Shown: positions 4,010 to 60,022 of the stretch, piece after piece
Position numbering within the stretch: the first letter of the stretch is position 1
How the letters are laid out: every line of letters begins with the position of its first letter
NCBI GenBank assembly: GCA_964016885.1
Contig: OZ024745.1
Span: forward strand, 113,646,001 to 113,710,000
From: Eledone cirrhosa
Lineage: Eukaryota
Direction of reading: 5' to 3'
Length of the DNA: 64,000 bases
The notes under the pieces: generated by a model
The model's input: only the letters and a program-made list of their open reading frames with translations
What the model was told of the DNA's origin: nothing
Database searches by the model: none
Position numbers and translations under genes: made by a program

Positions 4010-4162
4010 GTAACTAAGCTGTTCACGTTAAGAAATAGCCGTCGAAACGGCTTGAGCTCTGCCGTCGGTGTCATACTTTTTCCTATTTCCCACTCTACTA
4101 CCCTAAGTATTGAGTACTCTGGTGCGTTATGGTCCATCTGGCTCCTTACCACAATTCCTTCG

Positions 4163-4200
<38 letters not shown>

Positions 4201-4309
4201 TAACGAAGGAATTGTGGTAAGGAACCAGATGGAGCATAACGCACCAGAGTACTCAATACTTAGGGTAGTAGAGTGGGAAATAGGAAAAAGTATGACCCCG
4301 ACGGCAGAG

Positions 4310-4310
<1 letters not shown>
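4010..4310. mobile_element. Family D hammerhead-half element, tail-to-tail inverted pair around (TA)n
   Basis: About 4056-4165 is the reverse complement of 4201-4310. It contains GAAAC-GGC-ttgagctct-GCC-GTC. Homologous to 24500, 57900 and 59900. Confidence 0.75.
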
Positions 4311-4398
<88 letters not shown>

Positions 4399-24461: not shown

Positions 24462-24711
24462 CAGATATTTCTCTTCAGATTAAAACTGAGTTCGGATCTA
24501 GCTGTCGAAACGGCCGGAGCTCAGCCGTCGGGGTCCTGAATCTTTTCATATTACCCACTCTACTTCCCCAAGTATCGAGTACCCACCAGAGTACTCGATA
24601 CTTGGGGAAGTATAGTGGGTAATATGAAAAGATTCAGGACCCCGACGGCTGAGCTCCGGCCGTTTCGACAGCTAGATCCGAACTCAGTTTTAATCTGAAG
24701 AGAAATATCTG
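24462..24711. repeat. Near-perfect palindrome (about 120-bp arms) of a family D element
   Basis: Arms at 24462-24582 and 24591-24711 with spacer ccaccaga. Confidence 0.9.
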
Positions 24712-41815: not shown

Positions 41816-41935
41816 ATGCTTACAGTTCCTAGATTTCCCAAGCGGTTACCCATCTCAGTACTAACTCGGCACGACTTTGCTTAACTTCTGTGATCGGATG
41901 AGGACCTGTGTTTTCAACGTGATATAGCCTATAAT
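41816..41935 (-). pseudogene. 5S rRNA pseudogene (full length, diverged)
   Basis: ggctatatcacgttgaaaacacaggtcctcatccgatcacagaagttaagcaaagtcgtgccgagttagtactgagatgggtaaccgcttgggaa..ctgtaagc is colinear with metazoan 5S rRNA but has many substitutions. Confidence 0.85.
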
Positions 41936-41983
41936 AAAAAGTATGCTATAACATGGAAAGATTGCGAATTATTACGTTCAGTA

Positions 41984-48807: not shown

Positions 48808-49124
<317 letters not shown>

Positions 49125-57671: not shown

Positions 57672-57810
57672 CGTGTGTGCGTGTAGATTCCAGAGTTGTG
57701 TCCGGGTGGGTGGGTGTGTGTGTGCGTGGGGGGGGGGGGCTGTAGATACAAAGATACTAACTACATTGGTAGAGTATAGGCATTTAAAAAAGATTTTGTA
57801 TAGAAATGAC

Positions 57811-57878
57811 TTCTACAGGAATAGAACAGTTTCATTCGTATGAAATTATCAGGAATATCCTGATCATTTCATACGAAT
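57811..57878 (-). ncRNA. Degenerate family A hammerhead with a short fold-back
   Basis: CUGAUAA-U-UUCA-UA-CGAA-U-GAAA-CUG..CUG-UA-GAAG; inverted repeat at 57834-57878. Confidence 0.6.
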
Positions 57879-57880
57879 AT

Positions 57881-58070
57881 ATAGGAGAATGTTTAACCCC
57901 GACGGCAGAGCTCAAGCCGTTTCGACGGCTATTTCTGGAATAGCCGTCGAAACGGCTTGAGCTCTGCCGTCGGAGTTAAACATTTTCCTATTACCCACTC
58001 TACTACCCTAAGTATTGAGTACTCTGGTGCGTTATGGTCCATCTGGTTCCTTACCACACCTCCTTCGTTA
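57881..58070 (+). mobile_element. Family D element with head-to-head fold-back
   Basis: Palindrome 57881-57991 centred on tttctggaa; the tail matches 4070-4165 and ends at (TA)n. Confidence 0.8.
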
Positions 58071-58114
58071 TATATATAAGAAAATTATAAAATTAACTTA
58101 CTTACTAAAATATC

Positions 58115-58196
58115 ACTTCCAACTAATTAGTTTCTGGAATGGAGTAGATACATCTTCCGAAGAAGGTGTAGAGAAACATCCCGTCATCAGGAAAGT
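58115..58196 (-). ncRNA. Type I hammerhead ribozyme, family H (copy 1)
   Basis: ACUUUC-CUGAUGA-C-GGGAUG..UACAC-CUUC-UUCG-GAAG-AUGUA..CAUUCC-A-GAAA-CUAAUUAG-UU-GGAAGU. Confidence 0.9.
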
Positions 58197-58637
58197 CAAT
58201 TCTCATATACGTTTCCAGGCAAAGCGAGGACACTGGAAGCTTATTAAAAAAATAAATCAGTGAATAGGAAATAGCAAAGCGTGGACTTAATTCCTAGCCA
58301 TTGAGAAAATCACTGCCTCTGTGTCCGTGGCAAATTCAAAAAGAATCGAACACGTGACACCGAGGTCAATCGATGGAAAGTGGGTTGTTAATAAGACAGC
58401 GGCCAGCGTACTACTGTAGCAGCAGTCATGGCCAGTATTGCTCGACAAAAGATTTGGAGATAATAATAAAGAATTCATATCTAGTAACATATATATACAT
58501 ACAAATGCATATCGATGCTAGCAAATATATAGGTTTTGTCTTAATAACATTGTGGTTCAATGCATGGGGTTGCAGAACAATAATATAAGAGGCGTAAAAT
58601 AAGAAAATTATAAAATTAACTTACTTACTAAAATATC

Positions 58638-58719
58638 ACTTCCAACTAATTAGTTTCTGGAATGGAGTAGATACATCTTCCGAAGAAGGTGTAGAGAAAC
58701 ATCCCGTCATCAGGAAAGT
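58638..58719 (-). ncRNA. Type I hammerhead ribozyme, family H (copy 2)
   Basis: Identical to 58115-58196, offset by 523 nt. Confidence 0.9.
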
Positions 58720-58991
58720 CAATTCTCATATAAGTTTCCAGGCAAAGCGAGGACACTGGAAGCTTATTAAAAAATAAATCAGTGAATAGGAAATAGCAAA
58801 GCGTGGACTTAATTCCTAGCCATTGAGAAAATCACTGCCTCTGTGTCCGTGGAAAATTCAAAAAGAATCGAACACGTGACACCGAGGTTAATCGGTGGAA
58901 AGTGGGTTGTTAATAAGACAGTTATAGACTCGACACCATTATGGATATGCTCTTCAGACTGACGATTCAACAAAAATTACTGAATTACATG

Positions 58992-59055
<64 letters not shown>

Positions 59056-59080
59056 CATGTAATTCAATAATTTTTGTTGA

Positions 59081-59179
59081 ATCGCCAGTCTGAAGAGCAT
59101 ATCCATAATGGCATCGAGTCTATAACTTCTATGGGTGACCCTGAGTCAATACTCTGCGAAACGCGCGAAACAGGTCGAT
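59081..59179 (+). ncRNA. Type I hammerhead ribozyme, family G (U16.1 mutated)
   Basis: AUCGCCAGU-CUGAAGA-GCA-[55 nt]-UGC-GAAA-CGCGCG-AA-ACAGGUCGAU. Sister copies have UA (48996) or UU (30491) at the cleavage site. Confidence 0.7.
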
Positions 59180-59293
59180 ACACAATAAAGAACTAAAATA
59201 AATGTAAACGAAACTTCGTTTTTCATAATATATATATATATATATATACATACACTCACACCACATACACACACACACACACACGCACGCACG

Positions 59294-59326
<33 letters not shown>

Positions 59327-59370
59327 GTGTGTATATACGTATATATATGTATATATATATATATATAGAT

Positions 59371-59433
<63 letters not shown>

Positions 59434-59654
59434 TACACGGGTGTATATGATTGTGTATAGAAGATTATATTAACAAAAGGAATTCCAACTTTGTCTGATT
59501 TACTCGTTTTATTTACAATCCTTTAAAATTTATAATGGCATTAGAATGAAATAGTATGGTAGAATATTAAATGTTAAGTGTTAATGTGTGGTGACAGTCA
59601 AGTTTGCAATTTTCAACAGTTGAAAATTGCAAACTTGACTGTCACCACACATTA

Positions 59655-59693
59655 TGAACCTGAAGATTGCGAAAGCATGAAAGTACTTGTTCA
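59655..59693 (+). ncRNA. Minimal type I hammerhead ribozyme, family E
   Basis: UGAAC-CUGAAGA-U-UGC-GAAA-GCA-U-GAAA-GUAC-UU-GUUCA. Perfect 5-bp stem I, GNRA-capped stem II and palindromic stem III (AGUACU). Confidence 0.9.
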
Positions 59694-59817
59694 ATTAACA
59701 CTTAACATTTAATATTCTACCATACTATTTCATTCTAATACCATTATAAATGTTAAAGGATTGTAAATAAAACGAGTAAATCAGACAAAGTTGGGATTCC
59801 TTTTATTAATATATATA

Positions 59818-59883
<66 letters not shown>

Positions 59884-59887
<4 letters not shown>

Positions 59888-60022
59888 AACAAGTATGACC
59901 CCGACGGCAGAGCTCATGACGTATCGACGGCTATTTCTGGAGTCCAGAAACAGCCGTCGAAACGGCTTGAGCTCTGCCGTCGGGGTCATACTTCTTCCTA
60001 TTACCCACTCTACTACCCTAAG
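59884..60022 (+). mobile_element. Family D element with head-to-head fold-back, between (TA)n arrays
   Basis: Palindrome 59893-59991 centred on ctggagtccag. Confidence 0.8.

What the first reader, a model, noticed from the sequence alone, without database searches (positions are those of the whole stretch)
59466..59813. Palindrome in which one arm has lost exactly the ribozyme
The arms mirror each other about 59618, except that the left arm lacks precisely the 39-nt hammerhead plus one of its two flanking ATTA repeats (59651-59654 and 59694-59697). This is a natural deletion marking the folded domain: a polymerase appears to have jumped across the base of stem I on a single-stranded template. 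In a hairpin transcript the ribozyme would be looped out, free of antisense, and so could remain active.
Basis: partly seen in the sequence, partly recalled or inferred. Interest (0 to 1): 0.75.

Follow-up and report, generated by a model that had tools for sequence, protein, structure and literature searches.

The report
Penelope mirror insertion with joining scar
This 380-base mirror repeat is two head-to-head copies of the front end of a common Penelope-like jumping gene, and the 43 bases missing from one arm are likely an ordinary scar from joining the two copies, one of dozens with scattered ends, that happens to fit the self-cutting RNA motif.

Summary
It is a deletion, private to this locus: 1 exact junction in the genome against 954 exact intact motifs. 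The palindrome is the terminal repeat (pLTR) of a Penelope-like element with RT and GIY-YIG upstream. Its arms meet at a likely transcription start, and one arm carries the 36-nt PLE tail. Large deletions are about 7-fold commoner over the hammerhead interval than downstream (13/2413 vs 2/2740). A wider search shows why this is probably not ribozyme-guided. In 43 independent events the ends are scattered, and only 8 frame stem I (5.6 expected, P 0.18). They use microhomology and inserted letters, and 44 of 45 such arms lie in head-to-head insertions (background 42 of 70). They look like scars of joining near the palindrome centre. The looped-out motif is predicted to fold stems I and II, but it is a dimer-type, weak variant and no RNA was seen. 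Earlier scan notes report similar two-ended insertions on other DNA of this genome.

The parts
59431..59617 (-). Left (long) arm: PLE pLTR from the likely transcription start through the tail, lacking 43 nt
   Evidence: same layout in family copies
59431..59466 (-). 36-nt AC-rich tail, on one arm only; in near-full element L248 it follows the upstream pLTR, ahead of the ORF region
   Evidence: tail as second RT start in PMC11167929
59582..59585 (-). Deletion junction: single ATTA microhomology joining element positions 32-36 to 76-80
   Evidence: run X2 contig 59556-59610
59618..59618 (.). Palindrome centre (CAAC-A-GTTG); corresponds to the likely RNA 5' end, about 31 nt below a TATATAA box in full pLTR copies
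   Evidence: start site inferred, not measured
59619..59813 (+). Right (short) arm: intact pLTR 3' part without tail
59655..59693 (+). Minimal type I hammerhead motif: stem I 59655-59659/59689-59693, CUGAAGA 59660-59666, U.U plus 3-bp stem II with GAAA loop 59667-59678, GAAA 59679-59682, palindromic GUAC 59683-59686
   Evidence: no Rfam hit
59686..59688 (+). Predicted cleavage triplet CUU
   Evidence: sequence; cleavage untested
59651..59654 (+). ATTA, 5' copy of the microhomology
59694..59697 (+). ATTA, 3' copy of the microhomology
59228..59430 (.). Left flank: (TA)n/(CA)n/(GATA)n microsatellite; the (TATC)n part beside the tail recurs in family copies
59814..59885 (.). Right flank: (TA)n, the likely target; no target duplication can be read

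Best explanation
The palindrome is a head-to-head pair of short copies of a Penelope-like element's terminal repeat in a TA microsatellite, and the 43-nt gap is likely a microhomology-joined scar made while the two copies were joined at insertion, not a ribozyme-guided skip. Shown: family identity, start of most copies at one site below a TATA box, tail on one arm, scattered breakpoints with microhomology, restriction to inverted insertions. Inferred: the element's enzyme primes cDNA from both ends of a cut, at the two internal starts that flank the tail. The finished cDNA ends in ...CAACTGT. Repair synthesis from that end copies the first 32-36 nt in sense, lets go and re-anneals through ATTA to the other cDNA at position 76-80, which was either cut short or looped. 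ATTA is one of only two products with 4-nt homology in that interval, so landing on the hammerhead's edges needs no RNA fold. The copy has no promoter of its own and is likely inert.
For: Family: GIY-YIG (E 3e-5 to 5e-4 in 3 of 3 C-terminal ORF pieces, one above the Pfam cut-off) and a weak RVT_1 (E 0.001, below cut-off, YLDD seen) upstream of the pLTR; partial tandem with tail in L248. 5' ends: of 60 C1 loci, 7 run upstream through the TATA box and 46 of the other 53 start within 5 nt of the centre position (hand count). Context: 44 of 45 large-deletion arms lie in inverted insertions vs 42 of 70 intact arms (p 1e-6) and 30 of 60 arms with 5-24-nt deletions (p 2e-8); 0 of 45 lie in full pLTRs vs 6 of 70 and 12 of 60. 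Breakpoints: kept ends 15-50, resume points 48-92; 8 of 43 frame stem I vs 5.6 by chance. Microhomology of 3 nt or more in 15 of 32 simple junctions vs 7 of 364 possible products; inserted letters in 11 of 43. Long and short arms are hit equally. Short inverted stubs of the first 16-31 nt with no second arm in 5 of 60 loci (2 run straight into (TA)n), and repeated templated insertions at the centre in 6 of 60 (by eye). Deletion loci are not older than intact ones (arm difference 3.0% in 36 vs 4.4% in 24, differently ascertained).
Against: Large deletions are enriched over the hammerhead interval (13/2413 vs 2/2740, p 0.003; 11 events p 0.009), and only large ones (mid-size 46 vs 75). I put this down to nearness to the centre, but no hammerhead-free interval at the same distance exists to prove it. 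Weak trends toward the hammerhead remain (P 0.06-0.08). A 43-nt loss recurs in both arms of L034/L035, and the join 41-to-82 recurs in L037, L038, L043 and L244. The test that the stub copies the intact arm had no power (10/434 vs 81/2819 differences, p 0.64). The centre base does not point to one arm as donor (8 T, 8 A). Timing at insertion rests on weak evidence.
Confidence: 0.6

Rival explanations
1. Ribozyme-guided: the element's RT stalls at the folded or cleaved hammerhead on the RNA and jumps, or is re-joined, across the base of stem I through ATTA.
For: Size-specific enrichment over the hammerhead interval. Resume points lean to ref 65-80 (24 of 43 vs 18.9, P 0.08) and the core is removed in 26 of 43 (P 0.06). 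L032 resumes exactly at the cleavage site. Short direct repeats at a hairpin base are the recalled signature of RT skipping (PMC8240250 and PMC2923612 seen as listings only).
Against: 0 of 45 events in full pLTRs and 1 of 45 in solo arms, although RT must pass the same motif there. Kept ends spread from 15 to 50 and their mean lies nearer the centre than the null (28.5 vs 31.8, P 0.018). Stem I is not predicted in the sense RNA, and the motif folds no better than shuffles (z 0.07).
Confidence: 0.18
2. Later DNA instability: the finished palindrome extrudes a hairpin or cruciform from its centre, and replication slippage or break repair deletes part of one arm by microhomology, which makes the repeat less perfect.
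For: Also predicts restriction to palindromes, nearness to the centre, both arms hit and microhomology. PMC3846280 (passages) ascribes microhomology deletions in Penelope copies to DNA repair.
Against: The centre itself is kept in these events, whereas hairpin slippage is expected to remove it (general knowledge). Deletion loci are no older than intact ones. Centre scars and stubs point to messy joining at insertion.
Confidence: 0.17
3. Assembly or long-read error inside a strong inverted repeat.
For: Palindromes are hard to sequence. No listed contig spans the whole stretch, and the junction contig was seen in 1 of 4 runs laid, in a cut table.
Against: Run X2 holds a 55-nt contig across the junction with no difference, and that 23-mer is unique in the assembly. 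Junctions across the family show microhomology and templated letters.
Confidence: 0.05

Closest known systems
EN+ Penelope-like elements with inverted pLTRs and tail (Craig et al. 2021, PMC8557442, passages; Arkhipova et al. 2013, PMC3846280, passages)
   Same: pLTR, inverted 5' copy head to head, 30-40-bp tail at one end, microsatellite target, palindromes at the inverted junction, microhomology deletions, TATA and initiator-like motifs in the pLTR.
   Different: Here the insertion is only two short pLTR pieces with no ORF. In the passages I read there is no family-wide map of one-arm deletions near the centre and no link of the centre to a start site.
PAc (Poseidon, Anolis) mechanism in vitro (Frangieh et al. 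2024, PMC11167929, parts 1-2 of 4)
   Same: Both target strands cut and extended, two internal RT starts flanking an AC-rich tail, AT-rich target, hammerhead in the pLTR that is not needed for insertion.
   Different: This family has a Neptune/Nematis-type linker motif; the paper leaves second-strand synthesis and joining open, which is the step the scar bears on.
[quoted passage not shown]
   Same: Type I core, 5-bp helix I, small palindromic helix III suited to dimers; opposite-strand pairs 100-700 bp apart already reported.
   Different: Helix II is only 3 bp with U.U at its base instead of G10.1-C11.1 (a U.U base is described for an axolotl motif in PMC7229834, passages).
[quoted passage not shown] 2017, PMC5728401, abstract only)
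   Same: Short synthesis at hairpins near a break, microhomology, deletions, repeated rounds of annealing and synthesis.
   Different: Shown for nuclease cuts in Drosophila; here applied by inference to cDNA ends, with no enzyme identified.

Membership tests
EN+ Penelope-like element | RT upstream of the terminal repeat | tested here: met
   L051 ORF: Pfam RVT_1 E 0.001, below cut-off; YLDD in the translation. Weak by score; not in the window copy.
EN+ Penelope-like element | C-terminal GIY-YIG endonuclease | tested here: met
   3 of 3 C-terminal pieces hit PF01541, one above cut-off
EN+ Penelope-like element | pLTR in partial tandem or inverted arrangement | tested here: met
   L248: inverted piece, truncated pLTR, tail, ORF region, pLTR; inverted pairs
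EN+ Penelope-like element | 30-40-bp tail at one end only | tested here: met
   36 nt; on exactly one arm in 42 of 45 palindromes, on neither in 3
EN+ Penelope-like element | Target-site duplication | tested here: inconclusive
   Flanks are microsatellite
Neptune/Nematis clades of PLE | CX2-5CxxC linker before GIY-YIG | tested here: met
   C-x4-C-xx-C seen in L051 and L055 translations; definition from PMC8557442
Neptune/Nematis clades of PLE | RT phylogeny | not tested
   No reference sequences fetched
Minimal type I hammerhead | Core CUGANGA, GAAA, NUH with helix I | tested here: met
Minimal type I hammerhead | G10.1-C11.1 pair and a stable helix II | tested here: not met
   U.U and 3 bp; no Rfam hit
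Minimal type I hammerhead | Palindromic helix III for dimer formation | tested here: met
   AGUACU at 59682-59687; monomer helix III probability 0
Minimal type I hammerhead | Self-cleavage | not testable with these tools
   Needs an assay
Non-LTR retrozyme | Tandem units, each with a hammerhead | tested here: not met
   No tandem units at this locus; the repeat is the end of an ORF-bearing element
RT skip across an RNA hairpin | Short direct repeats at the base of the skipped part | tested here: met
   ATTA/ATTA; feature recalled, papers seen as listings only
RT skip across an RNA hairpin | Stable fold and ends that recur at its base in any insertion context | tested here: not met
   z 0.07, stem I probability 0 in the sense arm, 8 of 43 vs 5.6, 0 of 45 in full pLTRs

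The most novel reading that the evidence does not exclude
The scars record how Penelope-like elements build their head-to-head repeats: both cut ends prime cDNA, the finished cDNA folds back at the transcription start and is spliced by microhomology to a second cDNA that the folded or cleaved hammerhead has stopped. The pile of resume points around the cleavage site would then be a genomic footprint of a PLE hammerhead acting in vivo.
Probability: 0.2. Interest if true: 0.62.

Novelty: new member of a known kind. Interest (0 to 1): 0.3.

Why it matters
The locus itself is ordinary: a likely inert transposon fragment whose deletion happens to fit a ribozyme motif. The family data are more useful. 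How PLEs form inverted repeats is called undefined in PMC8557442, and PMC11167929 leaves the joining steps open. More than 2,400 young arms, a fixed 5' end, stubs and dozens of junction scars give a ready data set for that step, and for whether the hammerhead folds or cuts during insertion.

Tried and rejected
Insertion of the ribozyme into the right arm: rejected. A subfamily lacking the ribozyme: rejected, the junction is unique. Precise ribozyme excision as a family rule: looked supported by the narrow search (whose anchors forced ends near stem I) and failed in the wider one. Three of the 48 hits (L210-L212) were intact hammerheads with point changes that mimic the anchor and were dropped; L207 (second arm of L206) and L216 (probable duplicate of L215) were dropped for independence. 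L199 and L224 are two-step events that my script scored as one. More microhomology in the hammerhead interval: rejected (7 vs 8 vs 10 products with 3 nt or more). Second control interval: 1 large deletion, no denominator. Simple fold-back copying of a whole arm from the long arm: disfavoured, since the centre base is unlinked to arm type and long arms alone are deleted as often as short ones. Stub-versus-partner test: no power. Extra conservation of the motif: none (27/1115 vs 59/3297 in 29 arms). No RNA holder listed. One search was swamped by other copies. One search had three mis-set strands and was redone. Paper searches showed no report of one-arm deletions in inverted pLTRs; the library is partial and no supplements were read. 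The host was not identified; 'octopus' was a guess. Look-ups of earlier findings by sequence, nearby place and words gave nothing.

Full report
Observation. The arms mirror each other about 59618. Alignment gives 33 + 120 matched columns, four substitutions and one 43-nt gap. The gap is the 39 nt at 59655-59693 plus one ATTA. That stretch has a type I hammerhead core: 5-bp stem I, CUGAAGA, a U.U pair and 3-bp stem II, GAAA, palindromic GUAC, and CUU at 59686-59688. Rfam does not score it, and alone it folds no better than shuffles. The deleted junction occurs once in the 3.0-Gb assembly; the intact 57-mer occurs 954 times. So it is a private deletion. One short-read contig crosses the junction without a difference (run X2; low depth, perhaps the assembly's own sample).

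What the repeat is. Upstream of longer copies lie a TATATAA box and ORF pieces with a weak RT match and GIY-YIG. L248 shows an inverted piece, a truncated repeat, a tail, the ORF region and a full repeat. This is the partial-tandem and inverted layout of Penelope-like elements, with a 30-40-bp tail at one end and microsatellite targets (PMC8557442, 12 of 13 passages read). A C-x4-C-xx-C linker suggests Neptune or Nematis; no tree was made. At least 2,413 arms carry both anchors around the hammerhead. In 60 loci taken in order along C1, 7 run upstream through the TATA box and 46 of the other 53 begin within 5 nt of the centre position, about 31 nt below the box (hand count; the loci were picked for an intact motif, so starts beyond position 27 could not appear). 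I infer that the centre is the RNA's 5' end. The tail lies on exactly one arm in 42 of 45 palindromes. In the anole element both target strands are extended and the tail lies between two RT starts (PMC11167929, parts 1-2 of 4). The arms of one locus mostly share subfamily variants (0.096 vs 0.32 differences at 9 sites). The window copy has the tail on the left arm (59431-59466) and no promoter.

Is the ribozyme fit more than chance? A first test said yes. Deletions of 25 nt or more number 13 of 2,426 arms over the hammerhead interval and 2 of 2,742 over a matched downstream interval (p 0.003; as 11 events p 0.009). Deletions of 5-24 nt are not enriched (46 vs 75; size by interval p 0.0005). 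Microhomology supply is equal. But those anchors forced the ends close to stem I. With anchors at element positions 4-15 and 93-107 there were 48 hits; 3 were false and 2 not independent, leaving 43 events. Kept ends run from 15 to 50 and resume points from 48 to 92. Both ends frame stem I in 8 events against 5.6 expected (P 0.18). The core is removed in 26 against 21.7 (P 0.06), and resume points fall in 65-80 in 24 against 18.9 (P 0.08). The commonest join is 24-to-73 (4 times), not the one in the window.

What predicts these deletions is context. 44 of 45 arms lie in head-to-head insertions, against 42 of 70 intact arms and 30 of 60 arms with mid-size deletions (30 of 46 and 30 of 75 examined). 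None lies in a full pLTR, against 6 of 70 and 12 of 60. An RT that skips a folded RNA should do so in solo and full copies too. Stem I is also not predicted in the sense RNA or in either DNA strand. Junctions show 3 nt or more of microhomology in 15 of 32 simple cases and inserted letters in 11 of 43. Centres of unselected loci show related damage: templated repeats of the first bases in 6 of 60, and inverted stubs of 16-31 nt with no second arm in 5 of 60, two running straight into (TA)n (by eye). This resembles synthesis-dependent microhomology end joining (PMC5728401, abstract only); no enzyme is identified.

Mechanism. Shown: identity, layout, private deletion, spectrum, context. Inferred: priming from both cut ends; a finished cDNA ending at the start site; brief synthesis of positions 1-36 in sense; re-annealing through ATTA at 76-80 on the other cDNA. 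ATTA is one of two products with 4-nt homology among 364 in the interval, so the fit to the hammerhead needs no fold. Timing at insertion is weakly supported: deletion loci are not older than intact ones (3.0% vs 4.4% arm difference, different ascertainment). The test of whether the stub copies the intact arm had no power. Later palindrome instability and a partial role for the hammerhead stay open, because no motif-free interval lies at the same distance from the centre.

The looped-out ribozyme. In a plus-strand read-through RNA the motif is predicted to form stems I and II (0.75-0.96), unlike in an intact palindrome (0). Stem III does not form as a monomer. A single minimal PLE hammerhead gave no detectable cleavage and dimers little (PMC4209133, parts 1-2 of 4); the anole motif needed the element's protein (PMC11167929). 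A minus-strand RNA would hold no ribozyme. Solo and full copies, 28 of 70 in the sample, already carry the motif free of antisense, so the locus adds nothing special. Expression could not be examined.

Comparison. It works like known PLE inverted insertions and is filed as a member on RT, GIY-YIG, pLTR, tail and target. It is not a tandem retrozyme (definition from bioRxiv 10.64898/2026.07.22.740005, part 1 of 5, and PMC7229834, 12 of 23 passages). Junction palindromes and microhomology deletions in Penelope copies are in print (PMC3846280, 10 passages). Searches showed no family-wide map of such one-arm scars. Earlier notes of this scan, read after I had formed this view, report two-ended head-to-head insertions of other hammerhead repeats in this genome, and one similar one-off coincidence with a hammerhead stem; they are not independent support.

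Verdict. Real, exact and mostly ordinary: observation confirmed, interpretation partly supported, interest 0.3.

Noticed in passing
L037 (G000:C2:370368221) and L038 (G000:C2:370761251): Two separate insertions with different flanks carry the same complex junction in the short arm (duplication of positions 36-49 with a 41-to-82 join); L043 and L244 use the same join. Recurrent event or shared template.
   Followed up: partly
L034/L035 (G000:C2:152002889-152002999): Both arms lack the same 43 nt covering the hammerhead, in a different subfamily background.
   Followed up: partly
L081, L084, L087: The two arms differ at 11 of 185-189 sites and at subfamily markers, as if copied from two different RNAs.
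   Followed up: no
window 58920-59127: Second palindrome, 104-nt arms 96% complementary, with a (TA)n run at its centre.
   Followed up: no
window 59883-59999; relatives at 57881-58015, 4031-4311, 24499-24674: Third palindromic family with several copies in the window; also beside family copies L003, L004 and L007 elsewhere.
   Followed up: no
window 58076-58399 and 58599-58921: Direct repeat of about 320 nt at 523-nt spacing, 98-99% identical.
   Followed up: no
window 21179 (+), 53827 (-), about 57800-57880: Hammerhead-like motifs of another family (CTGATGA...GAAACAG); the same family forms palindromes next to L020 and L034.
   Followed up: no
window 41817-41936 (-): 5S rRNA match, 75.6 bits, with several non-standard pairs; possibly a pseudogene.
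   Followed up: no
window 59122-59223 and 48950-49056: 75% similar stretches of about 105 nt, another small repeat.
   Followed up: no
tail of family copies, e.g. L002, L003: The tail ends in a perfect small hairpin (ATACAC-ACCC-GTGTAT), like the AC-rich stem-loop at the RT start described in PMC11167929.
   Followed up: partly
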